From assembly GCA_964457775.1 (NCBI GenBank), contig CAYWEW010000007.1:6961-70960 (forward strand): 64,000 nucleotides of DNA, in the 5' to 3' direction. A program made the position numbers and the translations under genes. Shown one piece after another: positions 5,391 to 21,554 of this stretch (positions are counted from its first letter, which is position 1; the number at the start of each line of letters is the position of its first letter). The stretch is from an uncultured Candidatus Saccharibacteria bacterium. GTDB taxonomy: Bacteria > Patescibacteriota > Minisyncoccia > Phycocordibacterales > UBA5272. The notes below the pieces were generated by a model, which did not search any database, was not told the origin of the DNA, and was given only the letters and a program-made list of their open reading frames with translations.

Positions 5391-5451
5391 GTTTGATAGG
5401 TTGTAAATTAGGTCAAAAAAGTATAGAATATACAGGTGCCAAATAATAAAT

Positions 5452-5534: not shown

Positions 5535-5547
5535 CAAATATAATAAA

Positions 5548-5577: not shown

Positions 5578-5813
5578 ATATATTCTGTCTGCCATAGAAG
5601 CAAGACAACTTCTTGTCTTGCGATGGATTTGAATTGGCGAACTAGCAAGTTCGGTTCTTGGAACCAAGCGAAACTACTTCGAGCGCAGCGAGGAGTTTTG
5701 TGACCTAATCCAGCCAGACTCATAATCTAAAATAAAGGAATGAAAAGGTACTCTTTCAGTTGTTTTGTTTATACTTAGCTTTTCTGATATTTTATTGTTA
5801 AACTTCAATCATT

Positions 5814-6209: not shown

Positions 6210-6218
6210 TTTAATTAA

Positions 6219-9532: not shown

Positions 9533-9553
9533 TTAGTGTTCACTTGACACTAA
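9533..9553. promoter_or_regulatory. 21-bp palindrome TTAGTGT-TCACTTG-ACACTAA (candidate NrtR operator 1) overlapping the -35 box
   Basis: Perfect inverted repeat read from the sequence. It overlaps the TTGACA at 9544-9549. Confidence 0.5.
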
Positions 9554-9572
9554 AATGTGATAGGTGTACAAT
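9544..9572 (+). promoter_or_regulatory. Sigma70-like promoter TTGACA-17-TACAAT upstream of the island's first gene
   Basis: Canonical hexamers with 17-nt spacing. Flanked by two identical-arm palindromes. Confidence 0.5.
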
Positions 9573-9584
9573 AAGATTAGATAA

Positions 9585-9605
9585 TTAGTGTATAGTTAAC
9601 ACTAA
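9585..9605. promoter_or_regulatory. 21-bp palindrome TTAGTGT-ATAGTTA-ACACTAA (candidate NrtR operator 2) downstream of the predicted start site
   Basis: Perfect inverted repeat with the same arms as operator 1. Centres are 52 bp apart. Confidence 0.5.
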
Positions 9606-9704
9606 TTAAGGGAATGTCATTTTGACACATTAGGCAGATTGTGGTAGTGTCATTCCTAATGATTGTTGTTTGACAATTAGGTTTAATTCGAAAAGGAGTA
9701 TTCC

Positions 9705-10529
9705 ATGAATACTGTTTCTGTAAGTGGTAAGTGTGATTATCTTGTAGGGAAACCTCTTGGTGGGAATAGTCGGTTCAATTTGTATCGGGCGTCCTCAAAT
9801 GCTTATCCTGATCAAGACTTCATACTCAAGATTGCAAAAACAACTGCGCAAAATCCACTTTTGGAGCGTGAGGCTTTTATTTTTTCGATTATGAATGATG
9901 AAGCTAAACGTCTTGAAGAAGAATATGCGCGGGTTACTGAAGGAAAAGGGTTTCTTAATTATCAGGTTGGTTTCCCTGTTTTGGTCGAAACATTTTTGGC
10001 TGACTCACAGGATAATCGACGGGTTATTGTTGCATCTCTTAGCTCAGAAAATATTAGCAATTTTGTTTCTCTTTCTATGGTGCGTGAACGTGATCGTGTT
10101 CGTGTTGATCCAAAAACAAGTGCCTGGATAATGGGAAAACTTCTCAAGATTCTTGCATTTTGTCACAACCAAAAAATCATAAACAAAAATATTTCTTGTG
10201 GTAATGTTCTCATAGAACGAGGTAATCATCTAGTTACTGTATACGATTGGTCAACTGCTTCAATTCACAACGAAGGTATTCCTCAGGCAGATTCACGAGA
10301 AGAAATAAAGTGCGCTACGCGTGAAGTGGTTCGTGTTTTGGGTGGTAATATCGTTTCGGGAGAAATCCCTGATGATAAACAACTCGTAGATGGTAAGTAT
10401 CAAGAATTTCTCATCAAGCTACTTAGTGGTTCTTATAGCAATGCAAAGGAAGCCCATTCGCGTTTTTACGAAGTTGTAGAAGCAGTCTGGGGCAGAAAGT
10501 TTCACCCGTACGCCTCTTACCCACTGTAA
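9705..10529 (+). CDS. Atypical protein-kinase-like (RIO/Kdo-kinase-like) protein, possibly a pseudokinase
   Basis: FILKIAK (VAIK-like beta3 Lys), LEREAF (alphaC Glu), NKNISCGNVLI (parallels RIO HGDLSEYNILV but with the catalytic Asp replaced by Asn), VTVYDWSTAS (DFG-like). GC about 40%, above the genome background. Confidence 0.5.
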   Translation: MNTVSVSGKCDYLVGKPLGGNSRFNLYRASSNAYPDQDFILKIAKTTAQNPLLEREAFIFSIMNDEAKRLEEEYARVTEGKGFLNYQVGFPVLVETFLADSQDNRRVIVASLSSENISNFVSLSMVRERDRVRVDPKTSAWIMGKLLKILAFCHNQKIINKNISCGNVLIERGNHLVTVYDWSTASIHNEGIPQADSREEIKCATREVVRVLGGNIVSGEIPDDKQLVDGKYQEFLIKLLSGSYSNAKEAHSRFYEVVEAVWGRKFHPYASYPL

Positions 10530-10540
10530 AGGAGAAGGAA

Positions 10541-11650
10541 ATGGAAAAGCGACGCTTTACCAGGGAAACATTCGCTGGTGTCAGGGAAAAAGTCTCTGCT
10601 GCTGGCGGAGATACGTCTTTTGCTGGTCGTCAGCATATCAAGAAAACCAACAAGCTTCACCCGCTTGTTGACCCTGCCGGCTATGGACTTGTTCGCAGGT
10701 CTTTGCCACGGTACTCAGAGTTGGCTGATGGACGGTTACTGTTGCCGAACGGCATTCCGATGCTTGACGAAACATTGTTCGACACGACTGGTTCGATGGG
10801 GCACAATGTTGCCCTTGCGTTTGAGTCATTGCCGACGATGTATGACCTTTTGACTGTGGGTGATTGTCCGGTTTTTGGCCGGTACGACCCGCAGATCATC
10901 AATGCCATCTTCGGCGATGTTGTGGATGACTACATCTGTGCTCGCTCACAAGCGGAAATGGATGAAAAAATCCCTGAACAGCTAACGCTGATGGTTCCAG
11001 AAAACGCTGGTGGTGATAATCCGGAAGATCCGGAATACGGCCTGTTTGGTGCGGCATTCCTCACGGATGCTTTTATCAACAGGTACGGCCTGAAAAGCTA
11101 TCATTCACTGGTTACCGATGCGACCAGTCATGGCCGTATCGACAAACCCAACCTGATTCGTGTGTTCGGTGATACGGTGTTCGATGTGGTTAAGGAAAAT
11201 GGTCATAGCATTACTGCGAAAGACCTACCTACCACAAAGGAAATCGTTGACGAACTAAAGAAGCGTACACACGCTTTCATGGTTCAGGTCGGTGATGAGG
11301 CTTATGTTGGAAGGTACTGGTCCGAAATTTACGGAGTTGATCACCTCGTCGTTATTGAATCGACGAAGTATCTTCCGTTCGTTAAGGCAGCCATTATCGG
11401 TCTAACTGAAGGCATCTTCGATTTGCAGTTTGTGCCTCAGTACCTTGAGTCGGTCGGTTGTGCGAAGAGTGCAGCAAAAAGCATTCAACGCGCAGTTGCC
11501 GGTATTCCTCTCGGTGCACAAGTGATGCTTCCCAACTTCGGTAAGATTCCGAATAGGGGAAGTGTGTTCGCAAAGAAACAGGACCTCTGGCCCATTGCGG
11601 ACGGTGCCACTGTTGACGAGGAAGAAACTGACGACGTTAAGTGGCTGTAA
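10541..11650 (+). CDS. von Willebrand factor A (vWA) domain protein, TerY-like
   Basis: MIDAS motif LFDTTGSMG parallels the D-x-S-G-S-M of TerY-type vWA domains. GC about 50%. Confidence 0.65.
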   Translation: MEKRRFTRETFAGVREKVSAAGGDTSFAGRQHIKKTNKLHPLVDPAGYGLVRRSLPRYSELADGRLLLPNGIPMLDETLFDTTGSMGHNVALAFESLPTMYDLLTVGDCPVFGRYDPQIINAIFGDVVDDYICARSQAEMDEKIPEQLTLMVPENAGGDNPEDPEYGLFGAAFLTDAFINRYGLKSYHSLVTDATSHGRIDKPNLIRVFGDTVFDVVKENGHSITAKDLPTTKEIVDELKKRTHAFMVQVGDEAYVGRYWSEIYGVDHLVVIESTKYLPFVKAAIIGLTEGIFDLQFVPQYLESVGCAKSAAKSIQRAVAGIPLGAQVMLPNFGKIPNRGSVFAKKQDLWPIADGATVDEEETDDVKWL

Positions 11651-11666
11651 TTTACGCCACATCAAG

Positions 11667-11704
11667 TGTTGGTGGGGTCATGGTTAAAATGGCCCCACCA
11701 ACAT
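11667..11704 (+). other. Strong intergenic hairpin (11-bp GC-rich stem) between the vWA and PurA-like genes, no T-tract
   Basis: tgttggtgggg-(15-nt loop)-ccccaccaaca. Confidence 0.5.
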
Positions 11705-11731
11705 TAACATTAACCAAAAGGGAGGTGAAGA

Positions 11732-13123
11732 ATGGCTATCAAAAAAGCATATACTGTCACTGACCTTGGTGGTGGTGATGGAGGTAAGGGTGGTGTTATA
11801 CACAAGTTGTGTGCACTTCGTCGCCCTCATACAGTTATCAAAGTTGGTGGAGCACAAGGTAGTCATGGTGTTTTTACTTCACATGGTGAAAGATTCAATT
11901 TCAGTCAGTTTGGATGTGGGACATTCAATGGATCAAGGACATTTATATCTAATCGATTTGTTGTCTCACCCGTGGGATTACTTAATGAAGCACATGCGCT
12001 TCGATATGAATTAGGTGTACACGATCCGATGTCACTTCTAACGGTGGATGGTAATGCTCTCTGCACAACCCCATACCACGGGATAGCGTCTCGTCTTAAA
12101 GAACTCGCAAGAAAAGAAAATCCACGAGGAATTGTGGGTGTCGGGGTTGGTGAGGCGTTTATAGATGCCAAACAATTTCCTGAGCTTGCGTTTCGTGCGG
12201 CGGATCTTGGTCGTAAAGACATGAGATCTCGTCTTGCTCAGGTTCGAGCACAGAAGCTAGAAGAAGTTGCTAACGTGTTTGCATCTGGCTTTATGGCGGG
12301 GGATATAGAAGAAGCCAAAGAACAGCTTGATTTAATTCGTAATGATGATTTTCTTGATTGGGCCGCAGAACAATTCGAAGAATTTGCTAAACGTGTTAAG
12401 GTTGTCGATGAAGATTTTATTCGTCGGGAAATTTTTTCACGTGATGGTATTATTGTTTTGGAAAGTTCACACGGCGTTCTCACTGACAGGTATTATGGTT
12501 TTGGCCCTCATACATCACGCTTTCGTACATTGCCCGAAATTACTTCTTGGAGCTTGCTCCGTGATTATGATTATGGTGGTGATATTGTTAAGTTTGGTGT
12601 GACTCGTGCTTATCAAATTAGGCATGGGGCAGGACCACTTGTAACTGAAGACACAGAAATGGCAAATGATTTGCTTCCACATGAAGTGGGCGCAGTCGAC
12701 CGCTATCGTGGAAAGGTTCGTGTTGGTCCACTAGATACAGTTTCTCTTCGTTATGCAATTAATGTTTGTGGAGGTAGTAATGCTTTTGATGCAATTGCTG
12801 TAACGTGGTTTGATAGTGTAATTAGAAAGGGTGAATGGAAGGTTTGTAATCGTTATTATGACGCAACGGACCCGCTATTCTTTAACCAATCTGGGGACAT
12901 TATTGTACGTAGAGGGGATGACGATGTTCAGTTAAGGCGACAAGAAAGTTTAACTAAGGTGCTTAAGTCTTGTCGTCCAAGTGTTACAACGTTTCAATTA
13001 TCAAATGGTACTTCGCAAGAAAAGGCGATTAAACTGTGCAGCGACGTGCTAGCTGAGAGGCTTGGTACACCTGTGCGGATGATATCGTTTGGTCCAACAG
13101 AAGCAGATAAAGTTTGCTTCTAG
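11732..13123 (+). CDS. Adenylosuccinate synthetase (PurA) family protein, divergent paralogue
   Basis: Colinear with PurA. GDGGKGG parallels the P-loop GDEGKGK. VGGAQGSHGV parallels GGHNAGHT. The C-terminal ISFGPTEADKV parallels ISTGPDRTETM. The IMP-binding GTTGRRRR element is altered (VDRYRGKVRVG), as is GTTGRGIGP (NPRGIVGVGVG). Strong AAGGGAGGTG ribosome-binding site. GC about 47%. Confidence 0.8.
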   Translation: MAIKKAYTVTDLGGGDGGKGGVIHKLCALRRPHTVIKVGGAQGSHGVFTSHGERFNFSQFGCGTFNGSRTFISNRFVVSPVGLLNEAHALRYELGVHDPMSLLTVDGNALCTTPYHGIASRLKELARKENPRGIVGVGVGEAFIDAKQFPELAFRAADLGRKDMRSRLAQVRAQKLEEVANVFASGFMAGDIEEAKEQLDLIRNDDFLDWAAEQFEEFAKRVKVVDEDFIRREIFSRDGIIVLESSHGVLTDRYYGFGPHTSRFRTLPEITSWSLLRDYDYGGDIVKFGVTRAYQIRHGAGPLVTEDTEMANDLLPHEVGAVDRYRGKVRVGPLDTVSLRYAINVCGGSNAFDAIAVTWFDSVIRKGEWKVCNRYYDATDPLFFNQSGDIIVRRGDDDVQLRRQESLTKVLKSCRPSVTTFQLSNGTSQEKAIKLCSDVLAERLGTPVRMISFGPTEADKVCF

Positions 13124-13173
13124 TTCTAAGCCGCGAGGAATTTTCTCGCATCAACCAACATTAGGAGAAAAGC

Positions 13174-14301
13174 ATGAACGATATACTGAAGGCCCGTTTG
13201 ATTGAGCTCGGACTCGGTGAAGACCAGGTTGCGAAGCTTGAAGCGGAAGGTGTCAAGGAAGAAGCCGATCTGCAGCTTCTCAATCGGGATGAATTGAAAT
13301 CACTCACCGGTTGCGGACTTGTGGCGGCGGCGAAGATTGCGGCGGCATTTACTGCTACTGTCGTAGCCACTCCGGCCGAGTCTGCGGTTCCGCCGATGGG
13401 GGCAGCAACGTTTGACATCCTCCCCCCGGTTCCGAGTGATGAAGCCTGGATGAATGCTCTCAAGGTTGGCGGCGTGCTCAAGTTCAATTCGAGTACTGTC
13501 ATCGGCACGGTGAGTGCAGCCCTAGCTGCCAAGGTGGGTCTTTACGAACTGCCGGGCAAGATCGGGGTGGCCATGGAAAGGCAGGCGGAGTCGCTCGAAG
13601 AACCTGTCGGTGAGGATTATTACCAGATGCAAAACCTCCTCACCCGTCGTAGCTATGCGGACATCTTTGCAGCAATGCCAGGTGTTGACGGCCGGTTCGC
13701 GACTCAGACGCGCAAGGATGTACTGCTTCGTCGTTTGAATGAGCGGTTGTGGGGCTCATTGAGCTCCTATCAACAACAGCTCAAGCAGTGGGTCGAGGCG
13801 TGGCAACAAGGGATGTCCAACCCTGCGGCCATGATGAGTGTGTTTACTGCAATGGCTGGTGGGGTCGGCGCTGTTCCTCCGGGAATGATGCAACCGCCCC
13901 CGATTGACGTTTTGCGGGATGCTGCTGACGGTGTTGTGAACGACATCAACTACGTGTTTGCCGGAACTGGCATTCCCGTTGCGATGGCGCTTGCATACGA
14001 CGCTCAGCAAATCCGCAAAGTTCTCGAAAACCCGTCGCTTCCTGCGCAAGTCGGAGCAGCGAATCGGGAACAAATGCTGCGCATGCTTGGTGCAGCGGTA
14101 TCGTCGGACTATCCGCGTCTCGAAAAAAACCTGAAGCAGTTTGCGCTCGGCATCATCGAGTTTCAAAATGTGACTTCAGGGCAAGCAGAGCTTCAATATG
14201 TCGTCGCGCTTTATCAGCTTGGTTCCATGATTCCGTGGGACAAGCTTGATACCAGCGACGGCGGTCATTCCGGCCTTGGTCGGGGAGGTAAGAAGCTCTA
14301 A
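13174..14301 (+). CDS. Hypothetical Ala/Gly/Pro-rich protein with an N-terminal SAP/HeH (Rho-N-like) motif
   Basis: ILKARLIELGLGEDQVAKLEAEGVKEEADLQLLNRDELKSL resembles HeH/SAP DNA- or RNA-binding motifs. The rest is low-complexity (MQPPPIDVL, AMAGGVGAVPPG). GC about 57%, the most atypical in the window. Confidence 0.45.
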   Translation: MNDILKARLIELGLGEDQVAKLEAEGVKEEADLQLLNRDELKSLTGCGLVAAAKIAAAFTATVVATPAESAVPPMGAATFDILPPVPSDEAWMNALKVGGVLKFNSSTVIGTVSAALAAKVGLYELPGKIGVAMERQAESLEEPVGEDYYQMQNLLTRRSYADIFAAMPGVDGRFATQTRKDVLLRRLNERLWGSLSSYQQQLKQWVEAWQQGMSNPAAMMSVFTAMAGGVGAVPPGMMQPPPIDVLRDAADGVVNDINYVFAGTGIPVAMALAYDAQQIRKVLENPSLPAQVGAANREQMLRMLGAAVSSDYPRLEKNLKQFALGIIEFQNVTSGQAELQYVVALYQLGSMIPWDKLDTSDGGHSGLGRGGKKL

Positions 14302-14341
14302 TCAGTTCTTTCTGTTTGTAATGTTGCTAATTTTGCAACAA

Positions 14342-14368
14342 AGGCGATCTTCGGATCGCCTTTTTTTA
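14342..14368. terminator. Bidirectional rho-independent terminator with a UUCG tetraloop, shared by the convergent 13174..14301 and 14384..16399 genes
   Basis: aggcgatc-ttcg-gatcgcct followed by ttttttt. Confidence 0.7.
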
Positions 14369-14383
14369 TACATAAGTTATTTT

Positions 14384-16399
14384 TTATTTTGGTTTACTTA
14401 ATTGTGGGAGAAATACTCTGTTAATAAATAATTGAGTAGCCAGTCTACGGTACCCAGAGTCATAAAAAGCACTATCACTATCAACGTTATCTGAATGTTC
14501 AGTTTCTAGATTTCCTTTTTTTGGAAAGAAATGTCTATATCCTTTGTGCATTAATCTGTATTGTAAAGTGTCACGCCCGATTTCCTCAGTCCAAACTTTT
14601 TGTGCACCTTGTCCAAGGATATATTTGTCCTCTGAATAAAGATATCCAGGCATTAATTTTTTATATAATTCTTTTATTGTTTCTGTGTCTCCATACCAAG
14701 CTCCGATGAGAGGATGAGTAAGAGTGCTATCGCCAAGTTTGGTGTCAGGATTATCAAAGTCTAAAATGGACATATTGCCGTCATTTTCTTCTAACCAAAA
14801 CTCCATAACCTCACCTTGTATTTTTTCATGAGTGAATGTTTTTTTTATTAAATCTTGGAGATGTTTACGTTTTTCAAATGGAGTACCAGGTTTAACAAAG
14901 ACTGCGATATCAAGGTCTGCTTTACTTTTTGCATATCCTTTTATTCTTGATCCAAGCATTATAACGACCGGATATATTAATTCGGATAATTCTTTATCTT
15001 TTTCGATGGATTCTATTGTTGATGTTATATCTTTAGTATGTATTTCTAAACTGTCCATTCTACCAGTTAAATCAAAATTTAAATTAGGTGATTTTATTCC
15101 AAAACTTGCCAGCTGTTCTTCATTTATAATTTGTAATGAATATAGATGAAGTATCAATTCTTCCGTGGCAGTATGAACATCAGAATCATTTTCAATTAAC
15201 CATAGACTTTTTATTAAGTTCTCATGTTTTTGATAAAATTCCTTAGCTTCAATGTTGCTTGTTTTTACTAAAGTTTCTATTACTTCTTGTATAGATTTAA
15301 TTATAAGTGTGTTTTCTATATTTTCTCCATCAATCGACAATTTATTTTTTATTAATGTTTCAAATTGTTCTGGTCCGAATGATAAAGTGTGAAGTGCTAT
15401 AATTTTTGAGTACCTTTCTAAAAGAAGCCTTCTTTTTTCTTCTTTAAGCCAAAGACCACGACGGTTGGTTGCTTCAGGGTAATCTCTATCAATAATTGCG
15501 GCTTCATTTTCAAAATCTTTTTGCATCATATCTGTAATATTTGAAATATCTGATTTAGGTAAGTCTAGTTTTGTTTCCTGAGAGCTAGATTTGTTTGCTT
15601 GTATGATTCTGGCCATGTTTGAGACCAGGCGATTTTCTGATTTTTCAATGAGGTCGAGGTCGTTTTCATTAATTAATCCCATATCTGCTAATACTGGTAA
15701 TGTATCAGCAATGCTATCCGCGAGTATCTTATCTGTCGTTGTTTCTAGTAAATTAATTATTTCTTCAAAAGATAATATTCCTCTTTTTAAAAATTGAGGA
15801 ATAAGATGCGCAGCTTTAACTACTTCAGGTAAGGGTTCTTTTCTGTACTCAACTTCTGGAATGTTACCATCTATGAAGTCAGCTCTAAGATTGTGTTGAG
15901 TAAGTAAATTCCCCCATCCATTTTTAATGTTAGACGCTAGTTTTGAGTTTGCCTTCGAAAGTTCATCTGTCTTTATTTGTGAATTTAAGTTGGGAAGAAG
16001 TTCAAAAGGCAAGTAAAGTAAAATTTGAGCATTATTTTTATCTTGTTCTAGCAAAAGAGAAAGGGTGTCGTAAAGTTCAACTAAATCTTTTTCCTGAAGT
16101 GTCTCATTTTTTATACTATCCCAGATATCTGTAGTTGCTTCTGGAATAAGATTATATAAATGACTAAGTTCTTTAGAAAGCCTTCGTCTTGTCCTTGCTT
16201 GCTCTTGCAGGTTTTTGTTATTTCGCACTTCTTCTGTCCAAGGTACATTTGTTGTTTCTATATACAATAATGATTCGGTGGCAGGGGAGGTGAGCACTAT
16301 TTTCGGAGATGATTCCAATGTTGCAAATGGCTGCTTGTTTTCCATAGTATTACATATATTATACAAGACAAGACTAGAGATGACTATTATCCTTGACAT
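14384..16399 (-). CDS. Large protein (671 aa) with an alpha-helical N-region and a C-terminal minimal nucleotidyltransferase (Pol-beta superfamily) domain
   Basis: NTase signature GSRIKGYAKSKADLDIAVFV (G-S-x9-13-D-x-D). Transcribed divergently from pncA and shares its operator-bearing intergenic region. Confidence 0.55.
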   Translation of the reverse strand: MSRIIVISSLVLYNICNTMENKQPFATLESSPKIVLTSPATESLLYIETTNVPWTEEVRNNKNLQEQARTRRRLSKELSHLYNLIPEATTDIWDSIKNETLQEKDLVELYDTLSLLLEQDKNNAQILLYLPFELLPNLNSQIKTDELSKANSKLASNIKNGWGNLLTQHNLRADFIDGNIPEVEYRKEPLPEVVKAAHLIPQFLKRGILSFEEIINLLETTTDKILADSIADTLPVLADMGLINENDLDLIEKSENRLVSNMARIIQANKSSSQETKLDLPKSDISNITDMMQKDFENEAAIIDRDYPEATNRRGLWLKEEKRRLLLERYSKIIALHTLSFGPEQFETLIKNKLSIDGENIENTLIIKSIQEVIETLVKTSNIEAKEFYQKHENLIKSLWLIENDSDVHTATEELILHLYSLQIINEEQLASFGIKSPNLNFDLTGRMDSLEIHTKDITSTIESIEKDKELSELIYPVVIMLGSRIKGYAKSKADLDIAVFVKPGTPFEKRKHLQDLIKKTFTHEKIQGEVMEFWLEENDGNMSILDFDNPDTKLGDSTLTHPLIGAWYGDTETIKELYKKLMPGYLYSEDKYILGQGAQKVWTEEIGRDTLQYRLMHKGYRHFFPKKGNLETEHSDNVDSDSAFYDSGYRRLATQLFINRVFLPQLSKPK

Positions 16400-16431
16400 T
16401 TCTAAATTTATGTTGTAGGGTTTTAAAAGAT

Positions 16432-16469
16432 TTGCATTAAAAAACTATATAGTGTATAATATACACTAT
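16432..16469. promoter_or_regulatory. pncA promoter TTGCAT-17-TATAAT with the 21-bp palindrome ATAGTGTATA-A-TATACACTAT (candidate NrtR operator 3) overlapping the -10
   Basis: Perfect palindrome at 16449..16469 with the same TAGTGT-N7-ACACTA core as operators 1 and 2. Confidence 0.5.
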
Positions 16470-16537
16470 TAAGGTAGATTACCTTGGTAAGGAAGTTCTT
16501 TGTAATAAAATCATTCAACAAACAAGGAGAAGTTATC

Positions 16538-17194
16538 ATGAAAAACAAATGGAAAATCGGTGAAAATGGTAACAAGGATGCACTGGTAATCATTGATGCA
16601 GAAGTCGATTTTGTGAATCCTGGTGGCAAACTTTATGTGTCCGGGGTAGATGGTGAATCAAGTGGAGATGATGTTGTTTTCGGTATAATCGAACTCAACA
16701 AACAGCCGTTCGATTATCGAGTCACCTCAGAAGATGAACATCCTCCTGGCCATATTGAGTTTGATATTTTTCCTCCACATTGTGAAAAAGGAAAAGTTGG
16801 TCAAGAATACGTAGCGGTCCTTGACCCCGTGTATGAAAGCAGTGATGAAAATCTCGTCAAAGGTGATGATGTTAGCATTATTGCCTACTCTATTGCAACG
16901 AGTAAGGAATTCGCCAATCACATTGGCCGTCTTCGTGCAAAGGGCATCAAGCGAATTTTCGTTACTGGCTGGGCATATACCCACTGTGTAGGAGAATCTG
17001 CAATTGCATACGCATCTCAAGGTTTCGAAACCTTTGTTGTGCGTGACCTTACTCGCAGTGTTGCTCCTCCTTACGGAGATCCTGAAGTCATGAAACAAAA
17101 ACTCGCACTTTATGGTGTCAAAGAAGTTTATATGGCAGATATGGAAAGTGCTGACTCATTTCTTTCTGTGGCCATAAGCAGCCCTTGTCCGTGA
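16538..17194 (+). CDS. pncA: Nicotinamidase / isochorismatase-family hydrolase (PncA-like)
   Basis: ALVIIDAEVDF (the ALLLVDxQNDF region of PncA). The Cys FVTGWAYTHCV parallels the catalytic GLATDYCV. AAGGAG ribosome-binding site before the ATG at 16538. Confidence 0.7.
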   Translation: MKNKWKIGENGNKDALVIIDAEVDFVNPGGKLYVSGVDGESSGDDVVFGIIELNKQPFDYRVTSEDEHPPGHIEFDIFPPHCEKGKVGQEYVAVLDPVYESSDENLVKGDDVSIIAYSIATSKEFANHIGRLRAKGIKRIFVTGWAYTHCVGESAIAYASQGFETFVVRDLTRSVAPPYGDPEVMKQKLALYGVKEVYMADMESADSFLSVAISSPCP

Positions 17195-17203
17195 TTTGTT
17201 GTT

Positions 17204-17246
17204 GGGTTTCTGCTCTATGTTTGCTCATTTAGCAGAAACCCTTTTT
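17204..17246 (+). terminator. Rho-independent terminator after pncA
   Basis: gggtttctgct-...-agcagaaaccc followed by ttttt. Confidence 0.65.
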
Positions 17247-17287
17247 ATAAAGTATCTAAATAATTATTTGGGTATTTTTAGAAAATA

Positions 17288-19150
17288 ATGAAAAAAATTT
17301 ATACTAACAATTTAAAAATATCAGTTGCGCAAATGAGTCCAACACCAATGAATGTTGTGGCTAATTTGTCAGCAATTAAAGACTATATAAATAAAGCTAA
17401 AAATACTGGTTCACAAGTAGTTGTCTTTCCTGAGCTTTGTGTTTCTGGATATGTACTTGGTGATAGATTTGAGTACAGCGATTTTATAAATGAATTACAA
17501 GAAGCAAATGATACTATTCGTGAAATGAGTGAAGGTATTGTTGTTGTATGGGGGAACATTGTAAGTGACACTACTAAGATTGGTGAAGACGGACGCATTA
17601 GAAAATATAATGCTGTACTTATTGCGTACAATGGAAAGTGGGTAAGTAACGGTGTACTTCTAGGATTTTTACCAAAGAATAATCTTCCTAAATATCGTAT
17701 CTTTGATGATTCAAGACACTTTTATCCTGCATATAAATTAGTCAAAGAAATGAATTTAGAGTTGAACGATTTTTTTAAAGCTTTTGAAATAAATATTGAT
17801 GGTGTAATTTACAAAATAGCTTTGGCTATTTGTGAAGATATGTGGGAGGATGAATATTCAATAAAATTATCTAAGATATATCAAAAACAAAATATTGATT
17901 TGCTTGTCGACGTATCTGCCTCACCTTGGACACTGGGTAAGTGGCACGCACGTGAGAATATGCTTGTGAAAAGGGTTAAAGATTTGAATGCGCCAATGCT
18001 ATATGTTAATTGTGTTGGGCTACAAAATAATGGCAAGAATTTAATCTGGTTTGATGGAGCTTCTGTATTCGTTAAGGAGGATGGAGAATTTGTTTTTCGT
18101 GCAGAGAATAATATAAATAATTTGTATTCTTTTTCTGTTGCTGATTTAAAAGCAAATAATTCTTATAAACAAAAAAGTGAAGTAGAAGAACTTTATTCCA
18201 ATATCACAAGTGCAATGTATGAGTTCTATAAAGATTTTAATAAAGTAGTTGTTGGATTGTCAGGTGGCATAGATTCAGCACTTACACTTGCTTTACTTTG
18301 TGCTGTTTTACCAAAAGAAAAAATTCTTACAGTTAATATGCCAACTAGATTTAATTCTTCCACTACTAAAGATTTGGCTAAGAAATGTGCAGAGAATTTT
18401 GGTGTTGAGTATAAAGTAGTAGCAATTGATGAATTATTCGAAGCACAATGTAAAGTACTTTTGGATTCAGGTTTATCATCACTTAATACTTTAGTAAAAG
18501 AGAATATTCAAGCTCGTCTTCGTTTACAACAACTCGCAACTATTTCGGCATCTTATGGTGGGGTGTTTACCAACAATGGAAACAAGACAGAGGTATCCCT
18601 TAATTACTTTACACTTTATGGAGATGCAGGCGGATCATCAGCATTTCTTGGAGATCTTTGGAAAGGACAAGTGTATGAATTATCTAAATATATTAATTTA
18701 ATTAATAACAAAGAACTTATTCCAGAAGGAATTATAAATATTATTCCAAGTGCTGAACTTTCAGAAAATCAAAATGTAGACGAAGGGAAAGGGGATCCAA
18801 TCTTTTATGAATATCACGACAAATTACTTTTGGCTTTTGTTGAATCTCGTATAGGTATTACGGATATTCTTGTGAAATATGAGGCAGGCACCCTTGAAAA
18901 ATATTTGAAGTGTGAAGAAGGTACAATCGCAAAATATTTTAAGACAACAGCTGAATTCATTAATAATCTAGAATGGGCATGGAATGCATACAACACAGAA
19001 TATAAACGAGTACAGTTACCACCAGTATTTCTAGCATCTCGCAGAGCTTTTGGTTTTGACAGAAGAGACACTATCGCACCAGCTTTTTTCTCCCAAGAAT
19101 ATGTAACACTAAAAGAAAAACTCCTTACTTCATCTGATACTGCTACATAA
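17288..19150 (+). CDS. nadE: Glutamine-dependent NAD+ synthetase (N-terminal CN-hydrolase/nitrilase domain plus C-terminal NadE domain)
   Basis: PP-loop VVVGLSGGIDSA and an N-terminal carbon-nitrogen hydrolase fold. 620 aa. Confidence 0.9.
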   Translation: MKKIYTNNLKISVAQMSPTPMNVVANLSAIKDYINKAKNTGSQVVVFPELCVSGYVLGDRFEYSDFINELQEANDTIREMSEGIVVVWGNIVSDTTKIGEDGRIRKYNAVLIAYNGKWVSNGVLLGFLPKNNLPKYRIFDDSRHFYPAYKLVKEMNLELNDFFKAFEINIDGVIYKIALAICEDMWEDEYSIKLSKIYQKQNIDLLVDVSASPWTLGKWHARENMLVKRVKDLNAPMLYVNCVGLQNNGKNLIWFDGASVFVKEDGEFVFRAENNINNLYSFSVADLKANNSYKQKSEVEELYSNITSAMYEFYKDFNKVVVGLSGGIDSALTLALLCAVLPKEKILTVNMPTRFNSSTTKDLAKKCAENFGVEYKVVAIDELFEAQCKVLLDSGLSSLNTLVKENIQARLRLQQLATISASYGGVFTNNGNKTEVSLNYFTLYGDAGGSSAFLGDLWKGQVYELSKYINLINNKELIPEGIINIIPSAELSENQNVDEGKGDPIFYEYHDKLLLAFVESRIGITDILVKYEAGTLEKYLKCEEGTIAKYFKTTAEFINNLEWAWNAYNTEYKRVQLPPVFLASRRAFGFDRRDTIAPAFFSQEYVTLKEKLLTSSDTAT

Positions 19151-19212
19151 CAGGATGCAGTGTCAGATGAACCGTAGTTCTTTGTTAATTTTAAGGAAAG
19201 GAAGGGAATCAA

Positions 19213-20523
19213 ATGAACCCGAAACTTCGTGAGCTTATTGAAGAAACGATTAGGATTGTTCGCAGTAAGGAATTTGTTCCGCCTGTTCAAAATGTAACAG
19301 ATATTGATGTTTACAAATTATTCATGATGCAATTTATCAGGCATTATTACCCAGATGTTGAAGCAACTTTCAAGTTGACCGTAAGAGATAAAGCGATAAG
19401 ACTTTGGAAGTATGTTGACCAAGATGAGCTTCGTCAATCTTTTGACCACATGAGGTCACTTTCGCTACGAAAGACTGACCGATATTATCTTCGTGGCATG
19501 GATCTCTACGACAAGTACATGTTTAGCGAAGATTTTCTTTCTTCTTTCGGAAGTTTTCATCTTCCGGAGTACAAGATTGACCACAAAGATGGGATTATGG
19601 ATGTTCAATTTCCTGGTCTGTGGTCAGAGAGCTCTCTTTGGGAAACTGGCGGAATGGCTGTTATTTCTGAGTTGTACTATCGCGGATTTTTGAAGGAGCT
19701 TACTGATGATCAAATACGTGACCTCTATATAGTTGCGGATAACAGACTTCAGAATGATCTACTTCGAATCAAAAAGAATCCTTGGGTTCGATTTGCTGAT
19801 TTCGGACATCGTCGTCGTCATAGTTTTCTTTGGCAGAAGTATGTCATTGGTGAAACCAAACGTGTTCTCGGTGATCAGTTCATCGGTACCTCGGATGTCT
19901 GGATGGCTTTTCATTATGACTTGAACGTGATTGGTACGAATGCTCATGAATTGCCAATGGTAGTAACGGCAATTGCTAAGAGCGATGAGGAAATGCGTCA
20001 AGCTCAATACCAAGTTCTTTGGCAGTGGCAAGAGATGTACGGCAAGGGTCTACGCATCATTCTTCCTGACACTTATGGGTCTGAGCAGTTTTTTGCAAAT
20101 GCACCTAAGTGGTTATTGGAGTGGCGTGGTCAAAGGCAGGATTCTGGAGACCCTATTACTGAAATTGATAGGTACAAGGATTGGCTCATTTCTAATGGGG
20201 TTAATCCCAATGAAAGAATCTCTCTCCCTTCCGATGGTCTTGATGTTTCGTCGATGATTTCAATCGCGTCGCATTATGAAGGTAAGCATGTAACTGGTTT
20301 TGGTTACGGTACGGGCCTCACCAATAACTTCAATGGCATTCTACCTGGGAATGAAGATTTTCGGTCATTCTCAATGGTGATAAAAGCCTATTTGGCAAAT
20401 GGTAATCCTTGCGTGAAGTTGCCAAACGATATCAATAAGGCAACAGGGGAAGCTTCTGCAAAAGAGCGCTATCTCAGAGTCTTTGGTCGACAGCATCGAG
20501 TCGAAAGAGAAGTGTTTGTTTGA
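19213..20523 (+). CDS. pncB: Nicotinate phosphoribosyltransferase (PncB family)
   Basis: DVYKLFMMQ, FADFGHRRRHS (the FxDFGTRRR motif), IGTSDV and GTNAHE motifs of the type II PRTase NAPRTase family. Confidence 0.8.
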   Translation: MNPKLRELIEETIRIVRSKEFVPPVQNVTDIDVYKLFMMQFIRHYYPDVEATFKLTVRDKAIRLWKYVDQDELRQSFDHMRSLSLRKTDRYYLRGMDLYDKYMFSEDFLSSFGSFHLPEYKIDHKDGIMDVQFPGLWSESSLWETGGMAVISELYYRGFLKELTDDQIRDLYIVADNRLQNDLLRIKKNPWVRFADFGHRRRHSFLWQKYVIGETKRVLGDQFIGTSDVWMAFHYDLNVIGTNAHELPMVVTAIAKSDEEMRQAQYQVLWQWQEMYGKGLRIILPDTYGSEQFFANAPKWLLEWRGQRQDSGDPITEIDRYKDWLISNGVNPNERISLPSDGLDVSSMISIASHYEGKHVTGFGYGTGLTNNFNGILPGNEDFRSFSMVIKAYLANGNPCVKLPNDINKATGEASAKERYLRVFGRQHRVEREVFV

Positions 20524-20532
20524 AAAACTTTG

Positions 20533-20567
20533 AATCCGGTCAATATATTTTGACCGGATTTTTCTTT
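20533..20567 (+). terminator. Rho-independent terminator after pncB
   Basis: aatccggtcaa-tatattt-tgaccggatt followed by tttcttttat. Confidence 0.7.
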
Positions 20568-20588
20568 TATCTGGGTATTTAATTTTAC

Positions 20589-20628
20589 TTGCATTATATT
20601 TTATATAGTGTATAATGAACACTATATA
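20589..20628. promoter_or_regulatory. nadM promoter TTGCAT-16-TATAAT with the palindrome TATATAGTGT-ATAATGA-ACACTATATA (candidate NrtR operator 4) overlapping the -10
   Basis: Same TAGTGT-N7-ACACTA core and the same TTGCAT -35 as the pncA promoter. Confidence 0.5.
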
Positions 20629-20639: not shown

Positions 20640-21554
20640 ATGAAAATAATCAAAAATATCAATCAATCAAAACAAAAGACCGTCGGAGTTGTAATCGGTA
20701 GATTTCAGCTTGCTAATTTGCACGAAGGTCACAAACACTTAATTGATACAGTTAAATCAAAGAATGATGAGATTTGTATTTTGCTTGGTTCATCAGGCGG
20801 GGCACCAACTAAGAGGAATCCACTTCCTTTTTCCATAAGAAAAGAAATGATTCAGGATTTATATAAAGATGCTAAGGTTTTTGAAATAGTTGATTCCAAA
20901 AATAAGTGGTCAGAGAATGTCGATAAAATTCTGAAGAAGAATTTTAAGAATAAAAATATTCGATTATACGGATCTAGAGATTCATTTTCCAAGTGGTACT
21001 TCGGAGAATTTCCTTTTGTCTATGTAAAAGAGATGCACGATATATCTGGAACAGAAATTAGAAATAGTAATATTTTACCAAAAGAAAAAGAAAGTTTTCG
21101 TCTCGGTATGATTGAAAGTCACAAGGTTAGATATCCTATTTCTTATCAAACAGCTGATATTGTTTTATTTGATGAAAAGAAAAGCAAAATTGTTTTAGGC
21201 CAAAAGGAGGATGTAAAAACTTGGTTCTTTCCTGGGGGCTTCGTTGATCCAAGTGATCTTTCTTTAGAAGATTCTGCAAAAAGAGAGTTAAGTGAAGAAG
21301 TGGTAAATATTGAAACAAAAGACGATGTTAAATATTTGGGCTCAATTAGAGTGAACGACCACAGATATAGAAATGAGGAAGACAAGATTATGACAAGTCT
21401 TTTTCTTATTAAATATAAAAGCGGAAAGATAAAAGCAGGAGATGATTTAAAAAGAGTAAAATGGTTTTCTTTAAAAGAGGCCAAGGAAGTCATTTCTGAC
21501 ACTCATACACCATTATTAAATATGTTATTAGAAAAGTACAGTAATGTATTATAA
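20640..21554 (+). CDS. nadM: Bifunctional NMN adenylyltransferase (NadM-type) / Nudix ADP-ribose pyrophosphatase
   Basis: N-terminal GRFQLANLHEGH (the HxGH nucleotidyltransferase motif). C-terminal Nudix box FPGGFVDPSDLSLEDSAKRELSEEV. Confidence 0.8.
   Translation: MKIIKNINQSKQKTVGVVIGRFQLANLHEGHKHLIDTVKSKNDEICILLGSSGGAPTKRNPLPFSIRKEMIQDLYKDAKVFEIVDSKNKWSENVDKILKKNFKNKNIRLYGSRDSFSKWYFGEFPFVYVKEMHDISGTEIRNSNILPKEKESFRLGMIESHKVRYPISYQTADIVLFDEKKSKIVLGQKEDVKTWFFPGGFVDPSDLSLEDSAKRELSEEVVNIETKDDVKYLGSIRVNDHRYRNEEDKIMTSLFLIKYKSGKIKAGDDLKRVKWFSLKEAKEVISDTHTPLLNMLLEKYSNVL

What the first reader, a model, noticed from the sequence alone, without database searches (positions are those of the whole stretch)
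9533..20628. Recurrent operator motif TAGTGT-N7-ACACTA at four promoters defines a putative NrtR regulon (island, pncA with the divergent NTase gene, nadM-nadK)
Four perfect 19-27-bp palindromes share the TAGTGT-N7-ACACTA core. They lie at 9533-9553 and 9585-9605 (the first overlaps the -35, the second follows the start site), at 16449-16469 (overlapping the -10 of a TTGCAT-17-TATAAT promoter for pncA) and at 20602-20628 (overlapping the -10 of a TTGCAT-16-TATAAT promoter for nadM). An NrtR-like Nudix-wHTH regulator is encoded directly upstream. This is a classical repressor-operator layout. It allows de novo inference of the regulon, which unexpectedly includes the foreign island and, through the shared intergenic region, the divergently transcribed 671-aa nucleotidyltransferase-domain gene.
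Basis: seen in the sequence. Interest (0 to 1): 0.65.

Follow-up and report, generated by a model that had tools for sequence, protein, structure and literature searches.

The report
NrtR operators controlling NAD salvage plus unknown module
A repressor of the NrtR family (an NAD-metabolism regulator) in an uncultured Parcubacteria-type bacterium has four clear binding sites that control the expected NAD-recycling genes and also a widely conserved five-gene cassette of unknown function, whose three-gene core also occurs in about 200 large mycobacteriophages.

Summary
TAGTGT-N7-ACACTA occurs exactly four times in 64 kb, against 0.01 expected, and every copy lies on a sigma-70-like promoter. The 8757-9407 product is a Nudix + NrtR winged-helix protein. 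The site is a 21-bp palindrome with the GT-N7-AC core published for NrtR. In related Patescibacteria contigs the same motif recurs upstream of nrtR, pncA, pncB, nadM and the first "island" gene, often at the same positions (centre -36; +2 to +17).

The interpretation needs one correction. The "island" and the 671-aa gene are one conserved five-gene module:
- M1, a pseudokinase
- M2, a vWA/MIDAS protein
- M3, a divergent PurA-like enzyme
- M4, a protein with an HhH N-terminus
- M5, a convergent alpha-solenoid + nucleotidyltransferase protein

About 80 Parcubacteria loci carry the module. NrtR is its only recurrent neighbour (12 of 41 lineages). M1-M4 are richer in GC than their flanks in 32 of 34 loci compared. 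A 6.8-kb block (9543-16345), which includes one operator, is 87% identical to a relative whose flanks are only 64-70% identical.

M1-M2-M3 also occur, in the same order, in cluster C mycobacteriophages. The regulator is an ordinary new member of the NrtR family. The module as a regulon member is new, and its function is unknown.

The parts
8757..9407 (+). nrtR: Nudix-like domain plus NrtR winged-helix DNA-binding domain (216 aa; the longest ORF starts at GTG 8739)
   Evidence: PF21906 NrtR_WHD 2.2e-20; NUDIX 9e-4, below the curated cut-off; NF050029 1.5e-30, below the curated cut-off. Full-length alignment to AraR 5bs6 (1.4e-26) and S. oneidensis NrtR 3gz5 (1.4e-22).
9533..9553 (.). Operator O1, TTAGTGTTCACTTGACACTAA. 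Its spacer and right arm contain the -35 hexamer TTGACA (9544-9549) of promoter P1.
   Evidence: It scores 23.4 bits and is centred at about -36. The same design is seen in L031, L034, L038, L043 and L107.
9544..9572 (+). Promoter P1 of the module: TTGACA-17-TACAAT, predicted start near 9579
   Evidence: 11 of 12 matches.
9585..9605 (.). Operator O2, TTAGTGTATAGTTAACACTAA, centred at about +16 of P1
   Evidence: It scores 25.8 bits. Equivalent sites at +2 to +17 occur in L033, L031, L034, L066 and L094. It lies inside the 87%-identity block shared with L033.
9622..9650 (+). Promoter-like element P2: TTGACA-17-TAGTGT preceded by TGG. It lies downstream of both operators and could allow NrtR-independent transcription.
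   Evidence: Similar TTGACA-17-TAGnnT elements lie 50-100 nt before M1 in L033, L031, L036, L038, L065, L066, L069 and L093. This is a consensus match only.
9705..10529 (+). M1: kinase-fold protein that lacks the catalytic HRD aspartate (pseudokinase-like), 274 aa
   Evidence: phrog_3043 6e-12. A profile of the family matches CK2 at 1e-7, with HRD aligned to non-acidic residues.
10541..11650 (+). M2: vWA (integrin beta-I-like) fold with a MIDAS-like D81-x-T83-x-S85 motif, 369 aa
   Evidence: AlphaFold2 pLDDT 91.7. Foldseek hits to integrin beta and vWF-A at 6e-6, probability 1.0. Viral VWFA proteins also match. The motif residues are invariant.
11732..13123 (+). M3: divergent adenylosuccinate-synthetase-superfamily enzyme, 463 aa
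   Evidence: PF00709 7e-34; phrog_1211 1e-45. The alignment to E. coli PurA 1ade keeps D13, K16, H41 and D333 but changes Q224 to H, T300/T301 to Y/R, R303 to K and R305 to V.
13174..14301 (+). M4: 375-aa protein with an N-terminal helix-hairpin-helix-like domain and an unknown C-terminal part. It is the most variable and most GC-rich gene of the module.
   Evidence: Weak profile match to the RNA polymerase alpha C-terminal domain and the RAD51 N-terminal domain (E 0.02-0.03). No Pfam, PADLOC or PHROG match.
14340..14363 (.). Terminator-like hairpin with a T run on the + strand, between the convergent M4 and M5
14384..16345 (-). M5: about 450 aa of alpha-helical solenoid plus a C-terminal minimal nucleotidyltransferase domain. 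The likely start is ATG 16345; the longest ORF reaches 16399.
   Evidence: The GS...DxD motif aligns to HI0073 (1.2e-3). Polbeta/MntA matches are weak. AlphaFold2 pLDDT 86.5. No significant PDB fold match. Orthologues are about 16 aa shorter, and the homology block ends at 16345.
16432..16460 (+). pncA operon promoter: TTGCAT-17-TATAAT
16449..16469 (.). Operator O3, ATAGTGTATAATATACACTAT, with the -10 hexamer in its centre. It lies in the M5/pncA divergent intergenic region.
   Evidence: 26.0 bits. The same layout occurs in L001 (TTGCAT-17-TATACT). The closest relatives also have a site in the M5/pncA-like spacer (L027-L030, L033).
16538..20523 (+). pncA-like (16538-17194), glutamine-dependent nadE (17288-19150) and pncB (19213-20523): an NAD salvage operon
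   Evidence: A terminator lies at 20532-20561.
20602..20628 (.). Operator O4, a 27-bp palindrome (core ATAGTGTATAATGAACACTAT, 20605-20625), with the -10 of TTGCAT(20589-20594)-16-TATAAT(20611-20616) inside it
   Evidence: 23.5 bits.
20640..22266 (+). nadM (NMN adenylyltransferase fused to a Nudix domain, 20640-21554) and an NAD kinase gene (21544-22266) overlapping it by 11 nt

Best explanation
The four TTAGTGT-N7-ACACTAA palindromes are operators of the NrtR-family repressor encoded at 8757-9407. A dimer binds each 21-bp site and blocks RNA polymerase, in one of two ways.
- At the pncA-nadE-pncB and nadM-nadK promoters the -10 hexamer sits inside the operator.
- At the module promoter P1, one operator supplies the -35 hexamer and a second lies just after the start site.

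By analogy with characterised NrtR proteins, ADP-ribose or a related NAD breakdown product would release the repressor. NAD consumption would then switch on NAD salvage (nicotinamidase, NaPRTase, NAD synthetase, NMN adenylyltransferase, NAD kinase).

The same signal would switch on a conserved five-gene Parcubacteria module:
- M1, a pseudokinase
- M2, a vWA/MIDAS protein
- M3, a PurA-like enzyme, probably GTP-dependent, with an altered substrate pocket
- M4, a protein with a helix-hairpin-helix-like N-terminus
- M5, a solenoid plus nucleotidyltransferase protein, encoded convergently

What is shown: the sites, their positions on promoter-like elements, the regulator's domains, and the conservation of motif, positions and gene linkage across lineages. 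What is inferred: binding, repression, the effector, and any function of the module. The most likely function is a multi-protein nucleotide-processing complex tied to NAD/ADP-ribose turnover.
For: Sites and statistics:
- Four exact sites against 0.01 expected.
- They are the only weight-matrix hits in the 64-kb window.
- No hits in 431 kb of control loci around distant NrtR homologues.

Regulator:
- It has the NrtR winged-helix domain and aligns over its full length with solved NrtR and AraR structures.
- The published NrtR motif is a 21-bp palindrome with a GT-N7-AC core (PMC2330246).

Promoter overlap.

Comparative evidence:
- 59 matrix hits in 1.05 Mb of related loci. Nearly all lie upstream of nrtR (8 lineages), M1 (about 15 lineages), pncA-like/M5, pncB, nadM or M4.
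- Operator centres recur at -36/-37 and at +2 to +17 in independent lineages.
- The closest NrtR relative (61% identity) has TTGCAT-17-TATACT with the operator on its -10, ahead of an operon that ends in a pncA-like gene, a 286-aa unknown and nadE.

Module:
- Gene order is conserved in about 80 loci.
- NrtR is the only recurrent family among genes upstream of M1: 11 of 110 ORFs scanned, equal to 12 of 41 lineages once the inadvertently omitted L043 copy is added.
- The module is linked to a divergent nrtR-Nudix-NAMPT cluster in L031, and to an ADP-ribosylglycohydrolase gene and a Nudix gene in L094.
- A divergent M5/pncA-like pair is present in four lineages and an adjacent one in L065.
- O2 lies inside the 87%-identity block that moves with the module.
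Against: - No binding or expression data exist.
- The best solved-structure match is the arabinose-responsive AraR, not an ADP-ribose-responsive NrtR, so the effector is not established.
- The whole-protein NCBIfam score is far below that model's curated cut-off (106 against 400).
- There is no operator upstream of nrtR itself in this window.
- A promoter-like element, P2, lies downstream of both module operators. In several relatives the operator is 60-400 bp upstream of the best promoter match. Repression of the module may therefore be partial.
- About two thirds of module loci show neither an adjacent nrtR nor a motif scoring 15 bits or more.
- For M5, the best promoter match (16386-16358) is about 100 bp from O3.
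Confidence: 0.85

Rival explanations
1. The palindromes are bound by a different transcription factor encoded elsewhere in the genome, and their proximity to nrtR is a coincidence of NAD gene clustering.
For: No binding data exist. Only 64 kb of the genome was seen. Some module loci carry the motif with no nrtR in the 10-kb flank (L038, L082, L094, L106).
Against: The GT-N7-AC 21-bp geometry is the NrtR family signature. The motif lies directly upstream of nrtR itself in 8 lineages, as expected for autoregulation. Motif and nrtR occur together across rearranged loci, whether nrtR is tandem or divergent to the module. No matrix hit occurs in loci of distant NrtR clades, as expected if the motif co-evolves with this NrtR clade.
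Confidence: 0.05
2. NrtR control of the module is incidental. The module was inserted between nrtR and pncA and merely sits behind operators that served the NAD genes, so it has no functional tie to NAD metabolism.
For: - The module is compositionally distinct: GC 40-56% for M1-M4 against 35% for the rest of the window.
- It forms a block of 87% identity to L033, whose flanks are 64-70% identical. This indicates recent exchange.
- About two thirds of module loci have no nrtR or motif nearby.
Against: - O2 and the -10 of P1 lie inside the exchanged block, so the module carries its own operator.
- Operators precede M1 in about 15 lineages with different surroundings. These include loci with no pncA next to the module (L031, L094, L107).
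- The positions are the same in independent lineages (-36 and +2 to +17).
- NrtR is the only recurrent neighbour family.
Confidence: 0.08
3. The regulator is an NrtR-family protein whose effector is not ADP-ribose. It could be a sugar, as for AraR, or a product of the module itself. The regulon would then respond to a different signal.
For: The best solved homologue is the Bacteroides AraR (1.4e-26), ahead of the S. oneidensis NrtR (1.4e-22). The family is known to include members that do not regulate NAD genes (PMC2330246).
Against: Three of the four operators sit on core NAD salvage promoters. Relatives link the regulator to NAMPT, nadM, an ADP-ribosylglycohydrolase gene and Nudix genes. No sugar-utilisation genes were seen in the regulon.
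Confidence: 0.15
4. The palindromes act as RNA hairpins (terminators or attenuators, or processing sites), not as protein-binding DNA sites.
For: O2 lies in the transcribed leader and is predicted to form a hairpin. The 132-nt leader folds better than shuffled versions (z = -3.4).
Against: - O1, O3 and O4 overlap -35 or -10 hexamers and are mostly upstream of the predicted start sites.
- The arm sequence itself is conserved across lineages, not just the pairing. No compensatory changes were seen among the 17 training sites or the 59 hits.
- Loops are AT-rich and 7 nt long, the stems have few G-C pairs, and no T run follows.
Confidence: 0.03

Closest known systems
NrtR regulons of NAD metabolism (Rodionov et al. 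2008, PMC2330246; S. oneidensis NrtR structure 3gz5)
   Same: The repressor has a Nudix-like domain plus a winged-helix domain. The operator is a 21-bp palindrome with a GT-N7-AC core. Operators sit on the promoters of pncA, pncB, nadE and nadM. nrtR is clustered with its targets. Autoregulatory sites occur in relatives.
   Different: The host is an uncultured Patescibacteria (Parcubacteria) lineage. No paper in the searched library mentions NrtR together with Patescibacteria. The arm sequence TTAGTGT is specific to this clade. The regulon contains a conserved five-gene module with no recognisable NAD enzyme.
Predicted ADP-ribosylglycohydrolase-centred systems regulated by Nudix-HTH or WYL factors (Iyer, Burroughs, Anantharaman and Aravind 2022, PMC9503650, section 3.8)
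   Same: An NrtR-like Nudix-HTH repressor is proposed to switch on a non-biosynthetic multi-gene system in response to ADP-ribose. vWA proteins occur as accessory components. One module locus (L094) has an ADP-ribosylglycohydrolase gene divergent from M1.
   Different: The core here is pseudokinase, vWA and PurA-like, plus an HhH protein and a solenoid-nucleotidyltransferase protein. None of these is part of the described systems. There are no phosphatase, Macro, NADAR or nuclease effectors. The module is not variable like a defence island: gene order is fixed across about 80 loci.
Adenylosuccinate synthetase PurA and the phage PurZ
   Same: M3 shares the fold and the phosphoryl-transfer residues (P-loop Asp and Lys, catalytic His, guanine-binding Asp).
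   Different: The residues aligned with Q224, T300/T301, R303 and R305 are replaced; from my own knowledge of the E. coli enzyme, these contact the IMP base and aspartate. One module locus encodes a canonical PurA nearby (1e-75). M3 is always embedded in the module. It should not be called adenylosuccinate synthetase.
kinase / hypothetical / 'PurA-like adenylosuccinate synthetase' genes of cluster C mycobacteriophages (Bixzunavirus, e.g. Mangeria genes 261, 262 and 264)
   Same: The three families occur in the same order: M1 (hhalign 98.4%, 6e-15), M2 (97.9%, 5e-13) and M3 (35% identity, 4e-47). The phage kinase homologue also lacks the HRD aspartate.
   Different: The phages have no M4 or M5 homologue. 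No NrtR or operator is known there. The function is also uncharacterised in the library searched.
TerY-P type triads (vWA + Ser/Thr kinase + PP2C phosphatase) — recalled from memory, not tested
   Same: A vWA protein is paired with a kinase-fold protein. The nearest NrtR relative (L001) has PP2C and a 626-aa kinase behind the same operator.
   Different: M1 lacks catalytic kinase residues. There is no phosphatase in the module. The L001 genes are not homologous to M1 or M2.

Membership tests
NrtR family of Nudix-related transcriptional regulators | C-terminal NrtR-type winged-helix DNA-binding domain | tested here: met
   PF21906 NrtR_WHD: 73 bits against a cut-off of 27, E 2.2e-20, residues 145-202.
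NrtR family of Nudix-related transcriptional regulators | N-terminal Nudix-fold effector domain | tested here: met
   Full-length alignment (residues 6-206) to NrtR 3gz5 (1.4e-22) and AraR 5bs6 (1.4e-26). The Pfam NUDIX score of 19.7 bits is just under the 21.1 cut-off.
NrtR family of Nudix-related transcriptional regulators | Degenerate Nudix box (non-catalytic sensor) | tested here: inconclusive
   Read by eye. The stretch GLIYLNENADETVKRIIEEKTCL departs from GX5EX7REUXEEXGU at RE (RI), EE (EK) and G (C). The consensus is from my own knowledge.
NrtR family of Nudix-related transcriptional regulators | 21-bp palindromic operator with a GT-N7-AC core | tested here: met
   All four sites fit TTAGTGT-N7-ACACTAA or ATAGTGT-N7-ACACTAT. 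The consensus is quoted from PMC2330246.
NrtR family of Nudix-related transcriptional regulators | Operators upstream of NAD biosynthesis or salvage genes, conserved in related genomes | tested here: met
   In the window: the pncA-nadE-pncB and nadM-nadK promoters. In relatives: pncA, pncB, nadM and nrtR.
NrtR family of Nudix-related transcriptional regulators | DNA binding relieved by ADP-ribose | not testable with these tools
   This needs purified protein and gel shifts.
NrtR equivalog NF050029 (NCBIfam) | Score above the curated whole-protein cut-off | tested here: not met
   106 bits against a cut-off of 400. It is a distant family member, not an equivalog of the modelled proteins.
Adenylosuccinate synthetase (PurA), for M3 | P-loop GDxGKG, catalytic Asp13 and His41, guanine-binding Asp333 | tested here: met
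   D16, K19, H45 and D361 are invariant and align to D13, K16, H41 and D333 of 1ade.
Adenylosuccinate synthetase (PurA), for M3 | IMP-base and aspartate-binding residues (Q224, T300, T301, R303, R305) | tested here: not met
   They align to H247, Y325, R326, K328 and V329. Scores against the purA equivalog models are 78-80 bits, against cut-offs near 400.
Eukaryotic-like protein kinases, for M1 | Kinase fold | tested here: met
   The family profile matches the CK2 catalytic subunit at 1.3e-7. phrog_3043 'kinase' matches at 6e-12.
Eukaryotic-like protein kinases, for M1 | Catalytic HRD aspartate and VAIK lysine | tested here: not met
   HRD aligns to S-V-G in the profile (N-K-N in the window protein). 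The lysine is K or Q across 29 orthologues. Only the DFG-like Asp (D181) is nearly invariant.
von Willebrand factor A (vWA) domain, for M2 | vWA fold with a MIDAS metal site (DxSxS) | tested here: met
   A high-confidence model (pLDDT 91.7) matches integrin beta-I and vWF-A domains: probability 1.0, best E 6.5e-6, TM-score only 0.3-0.4. D81, T83 and S85 are invariant (D-x-T-x-S). No Pfam match by sequence.
Pol-beta-type minimal nucleotidyltransferases (MNT), for M5 | G[SG] ... DxD catalytic motif | tested here: met
   G465-S466 and D477-x-D479 are invariant. The profile aligns to HI0073 at 1.2e-3. Precomputed PF18765 or PF01909 hits exist for many orthologues.
Known anti-phage defence systems (PADLOC) | Significant match of module proteins to defence-system models | tested here: not met
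   Only weak kinase-fold matches for M1 (best E 1.8e-4) and for the M5 nucleotidyltransferase domain (E 6e-3). M2, M3 and M4 have none.

The most novel reading that the evidence does not exclude
The module of pseudokinase, vWA protein, PurA-like enzyme, HhH protein and solenoid-nucleotidyltransferase is a previously unrecognised system, present across the several Parcubacteria lineages sampled, that is functionally tied to NAD/ADP-ribose turnover. It would be switched on by NrtR when NAD is being broken down. The PurA-like enzyme and the nucleotidyltransferase would make or repair a nucleotide derivative, with the pseudokinase and the vWA protein as regulatory or scaffolding subunits. The three-gene core carried by about 200 cluster C mycobacteriophages would carry out the same chemistry during infection, for instance to cope with host NAD depletion.
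Probability: 0.3. Interest if true: 0.8.

Novelty: new variant of a known kind. Interest (0 to 1): 0.6.

Why it matters
The regulator and its operator are textbook NrtR. By themselves they only extend a known regulon type to an uncultured Parcubacteria-type lineage; in the searched paper library no paper mentions NrtR together with Patescibacteria.

The value lies in what the operator points to. It gives the first functional handle on a five-gene module of unknown function that is conserved in order across about 80 sampled Parcubacteria loci, with hundreds of homologues in the protein database. One of its genes is routinely mis-annotated as adenylosuccinate synthetase.

Its three-gene core is also unexplained in more than 200 sequenced mycobacteriophages. 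Those phages infect a cultivable host, Mycobacterium smegmatis. The hypothesis "linked to NAD/ADP-ribose turnover" can therefore be tested by phage gene deletions and metabolite measurements, even though the bacteria themselves cannot be grown.

The data also show a compact design rule: one half-site doubles as the -35 hexamer, or the spacer holds the -10 hexamer. This rule can be used to predict NrtR targets in other genomes of this group.

Tried and rejected
- **L001 gene homology.** I asked whether the genes behind the operator in the nearest relative (PP2C, 626-aa kinase, 360 aa, 286 aa) are homologues of M1, M2, M4 or M5. They are not. The 360-aa protein turned out to be a long PncA-like protein.
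- **Close relatives of M3 in viral contigs.** None were found.
- **Exact-sequence look-ups.** Look-ups of M3 and of the 100%-identical M5 database entry gave no contig on record, and the cluster entry carries no name. The source organism is therefore known only by similarity.
- **Sequence searches for M2.** The PDB profile search and Pfam gave nothing. Only the structure prediction revealed the vWA fold.
- **Fold search for M5.** It gave only non-significant alpha-solenoid matches.
- **Defence-system models (PADLOC).** No convincing match, so I do not call the module a defence system.
- **M3 as the housekeeping PurA.** Rejected. The substrate residues are changed and a canonical PurA lies next to the module in one locus.
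- **GC excess as proof of foreign origin.** Rejected as sole evidence. M1-M4 are GC-richer than their flanks in almost every locus compared, 32 of 34.
- **Riboswitch or other known RNA in the long M1 leader.** Rfam found only a tRNA in the window. The leader folds well (z = -3.4) but part of that is the operator palindrome. I did not pursue it.
- **Literature.** Searches for the phage 'PurA-like' gene and for NrtR in Patescibacteria found no functional study.

Full report
**1. The observation**

The pattern TAGTGT-N7-ACACTA occurs exactly four times in the 64-kb window, at 9534-9552, 9586-9604, 16450-16468 and 20606-20624. Shuffles give 0.01 on average, and none of 100 gave four. Allowing two mismatches adds only scattered sites at the chance rate.

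With their flanks the sites are perfect palindromes of 21, 25, 21 and 27 bp. I built a 21-bp weight matrix from 17 sites of the window and its relatives. The four sites score 23-26 bits, and nothing else in the window reaches even 9 bits.

Each site lies on a sigma-70-like promoter match.
- TTGACA(9544)-17-TACAAT scores 11 of 12. Site 1 lies over its -35 and site 2 is centred near +16.
- TTGCAT(16432)-17-TATAAT has its -10 inside site 3.
- TTGCAT(20589)-16-TATAAT has its -10 inside site 4.

**2. The regulator and the expected targets**

The 8757-9407 product carries the NrtR winged-helix domain (PF21906, 2e-20) behind a weak Nudix match. It aligns from residue 6 to 206 with the solved Shewanella NrtR (3gz5, 1.4e-22) and with the NrtR-family AraR of Bacteroides (5bs6, 1.4e-26).

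The founding paper of the family states that most NrtR motifs share a 21-bp palindrome with a conserved GT-N7-AC core (PMC2330246). TTAGTGT-N7-ACACTAA fits this exactly.

The genes behind sites 3 and 4 are standard NrtR targets:
- a PncA-like amidase, a glutamine-dependent NAD synthetase and a nicotinate phosphoribosyltransferase (16538-20523)
- an NMN adenylyltransferase-Nudix fusion and an NAD kinase (20640-22266)

Terminator-like hairpins at 14340-14363 and 20532-20561 delimit the transcription units.

**3. Where the window comes from**

The closest NrtR homologue in the genome collection (61% identity) is in a Candidatus Paceibacterota MAG. All other hits are at most 38% identical and come from Bacilli and Bacteroidota. 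Homologues of the island proteins are named by their sources as Patescibacteria, Paceibacterota, Nomurabacteria, Uhrbacteria and similar groups. The window is therefore most likely from an uncultured Parcubacteria-type bacterium.

**4. The motif in relatives**

In the Paceibacterota MAG (L001) the same architecture appears: TTGCAT-17-TATACT with TAGTGTATACTATACACAT over the -10. It precedes an operon encoding PP2C, a kinase, a long PncA-like protein, a 286-aa unknown and NadE.

In 1.05 Mb of loci from metagenomes the matrix finds 59 sites of 15 bits or more. Nearly all lie upstream of nrtR itself (8 lineages), the first island gene (about 15 lineages), PncA-like genes, pncB, nadM or the fourth island gene. 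In 431 kb around distant NrtR homologues from other phyla it finds none, so the motif is specific to this NrtR clade.

Positions are conserved too.
- An operator centred at -36/-37, whose spacer and right arm supply the -35 hexamer (CTTGACAC-TAA), recurs in the window, L031, L034, L038, L043 and L107.
- A second operator at +2 to +17 recurs in the window, L033, L031, L034, L066 and L094.

These are classical repressor positions.

**5. The island is a conserved module that includes the 671-aa gene**

The PurA-like island protein has hundreds of homologues at 52-73% identity in Patescibacteria. I fetched 80 metagenome loci and several contigs encoding close relatives. They show a fixed set and order: a protein of about 275 aa (M1), one of about 370 aa (M2), one of about 462 aa (M3), one of about 375 aa (M4) and a convergent one of about 650 aa (M5).

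Among the three genes upstream of M1 in 41 distinct loci, NrtR is the only recurrent family. It accounts for 11 of the 110 ORFs scanned, or 12 lineages once the L043 copy that I left out is added. Next come NAMPT/NaPRTase and NAD synthetase, with two each.

The link survives rearrangement.
- In L031 nrtR is divergent from M1 and is followed by a Nudix gene and NAMPT, with operators on both sides.
- In L094 an ADP-ribosylglycohydrolase gene is divergent from M1, with two sites between them. A Nudix gene lies upstream of M5, again with sites.
- In the window, the L033 lineage, L036 and L060, M5 is paired divergently with a PncA-like gene with an operator between them. L065 also has a PncA-like gene next to M5, but no site there reaches 15 bits.

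**6. Is the island foreign?**

GC is 40-56% in M1-M4 against 35% for the rest of the window. The same offset, a mean of +5 to +12.5 points, is seen in 32 of the 34 distinct loci compared, and in all of them for M2. M5 matches its flanks. The offset tracks host GC. High GC is therefore largely a property of these genes, not proof of recent arrival.

On the other hand, the window and L033 share one uninterrupted 6.8-kb block (window 9543-16345) at 87% nucleotide identity. The flanking nrtR, nadE and pncB are only 64-70% identical. The block begins inside the P1 promoter, so it includes O2. It ends at the ATG at 16345, which is also the start favoured by orthologue lengths. The module, M5 included, has therefore been exchanged recently between Parcubacteria lineages, and it carries an NrtR operator with it.

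**7. What the module proteins are**

- **M1** has a protein-kinase fold (profile against CK2, 1e-7). It lacks the HRD aspartate, and the ATP-anchoring lysine is not conserved. It is best called a pseudokinase.
- **M2** has no sequence match in Pfam or the PDB. Its AlphaFold2 model (pLDDT 91.7) matches integrin beta-I and vWF-A domains, and it has an invariant D-x-T-x-S at the MIDAS position.
- **M3** belongs to the adenylosuccinate synthetase superfamily. It keeps the P-loop Asp and Lys, the catalytic His and the guanine-binding Asp. The residues that in the E. coli enzyme contact the IMP base and aspartate are replaced (residue roles are from my own knowledge of the E. coli enzyme). One locus has a canonical PurA next to the module. 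M3 is thus probably a GTP-dependent ligase with different substrates.
- **M4** has a weak helix-hairpin-helix match at its N-terminus and is otherwise unknown.
- **M5** is an alpha-helical solenoid of about 450 aa followed by a minimal nucleotidyltransferase domain with invariant GS...DxD.

No module protein matches a known defence-system model convincingly.

**8. A phage connection**

PHROG matches for M1, M2 and M3 led to cluster C mycobacteriophages (Bixzunavirus). About 203 records encode a full-length M3 homologue (35% identity, 4e-47). In phage Mangeria the genes run 261 'kinase', 262 hypothetical, 263 (90 aa) and 264 'PurA-like'.

Profile comparison shows that gene 261 is an M1 homologue (98.4%, 6e-15) and gene 262 is an M2 homologue (97.9%, 5e-13). 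The phage kinase homologue also lacks the HRD aspartate. M4 and M5 have no phage homologues. I found no functional study of these phage genes.

**9. Mechanism and its limits**

The best-supported model is NrtR repression of four promoters, relieved by an NAD breakdown product. For the NAD operons the operator encloses the -10 hexamer, which is strong positional evidence.

For the module, P1 is covered by two operators. However, a second promoter-like element (TTGACA-17-TAGTGT, 9622-9650) lies downstream of both, and similar elements occur in many relatives. The module may therefore have a basal, NrtR-independent level of expression.

For M5, the strongest promoter match (16386-16358) is about 100 bp from O3. 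A weaker match (16472-16444) overlaps O3. The only clean case of M5-specific sites is L094, and its sites score low (15.0 and 16.4 bits). Control of M5 is plausible but not shown.

The effector is inferred from the family. The best structural homologue is arabinose-responsive, so ADP-ribose is likely but unproven. This window has no operator upstream of nrtR, unlike eight relatives.

**10. Comparison with what is known, and verdict**

The regulator and operator are a new member of the NrtR family. Nudix-HTH factors have already been predicted to control non-biosynthetic ADP-ribose-related systems, some with vWA proteins (PMC9503650), but those systems have different components.

No paper in the library links NrtR with Patescibacteria, and none describes this module. 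I rate the finding as a new variant of a known kind. The regulation is ordinary, and the regulon member it exposes is unexpected. Parts of that member are shared with a large group of experimentally tractable phages.

Noticed in passing
window 23406-24271: An adjacent pair of FlhD-like (102 aa, PF05247, 5e-9) and FlhC-like (186 aa, PF05280, 1.5e-57) genes. FlhDC is the flagellar master regulator of enteric and beta-proteobacteria (from my own knowledge), so its presence in a Parcubacteria-like genome is unexpected.
   Followed up: partly
L113 (Mycobacterium phage Mangeria NC_054718) 3541-7320; about 203 cluster C mycobacteriophage records: The phages carry homologues of M1, M2 and M3 in the same order ('kinase', hypothetical, 90-aa ORF, 'PurA-like adenylosuccinate synthetase'), near a polynucleotide kinase gene. 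The phage M1 homologue also lacks the HRD aspartate.
   Followed up: yes
window 9543-16345 versus L033 7818-14616: A single 6.8-kb block of 87% nucleotide identity is flanked by genes only 64-70% identical. The PncA-like gene next to it is only about 30% identical at protein level between the two genomes. This suggests cassette exchange and replacement of the neighbouring pncA.
   Followed up: partly
window 9606-9704 (M1 leader) and 9622-9650: The long leader contains a second promoter-like element (TTGACA-17-TAGTGT with TGG upstream) and a further TTGACAA box at 9672. TTGACA(A) boxes recur 2-3 times upstream of M1 in most loci. The 132-nt leader folds better than shuffles (z = -3.4). It may be a second regulator's sites or an RNA element.
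   Followed up: partly
L001 3845-8591: In the nearest relative the NrtR operator and promoter precede a PP2C phosphatase, a 626-aa protein kinase, a 360-aa PncA-like protein, a 286-aa unknown and nadE. This is a different signalling pair in the same regulatory slot as the module.
   Followed up: partly
L045 11440, L052 2459, L070 2854, L081 1345, L089 11451: In five loci without an adjacent nrtR, operator-like sites (16-19 bits) lie between M3 and M4, where the intergenic gap is longer. They may mark a separate NrtR-controlled promoter for M4.
   Followed up: no
L038 147-589: Five operator-like sites lie within about 450 bp upstream of M1 in one locus.
   Followed up: no
L094 6686-7711 and 14969-15688: An ADP-ribosylglycohydrolase gene (3e-48) is divergent from M1, and a Nudix gene lies upstream of M5. 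Operator-like sites occur in both intergenic regions.
   Followed up: partly
window 5452-5535: A tRNA-Tyr (GTA) gene lies 3 kb upstream of nrtR. It is the only RNA gene found in the window.
   Followed up: no
window 6219-8720: An 833-aa FAD-binding oxidase-like protein (PF01565, 2e-22) ends 18 nt before the longest nrtR ORF (GTG 8739; 36 nt before the ATG at 8757). nrtR may be co-transcribed with it, which could explain why this genome lacks an autoregulatory operator.
   Followed up: no
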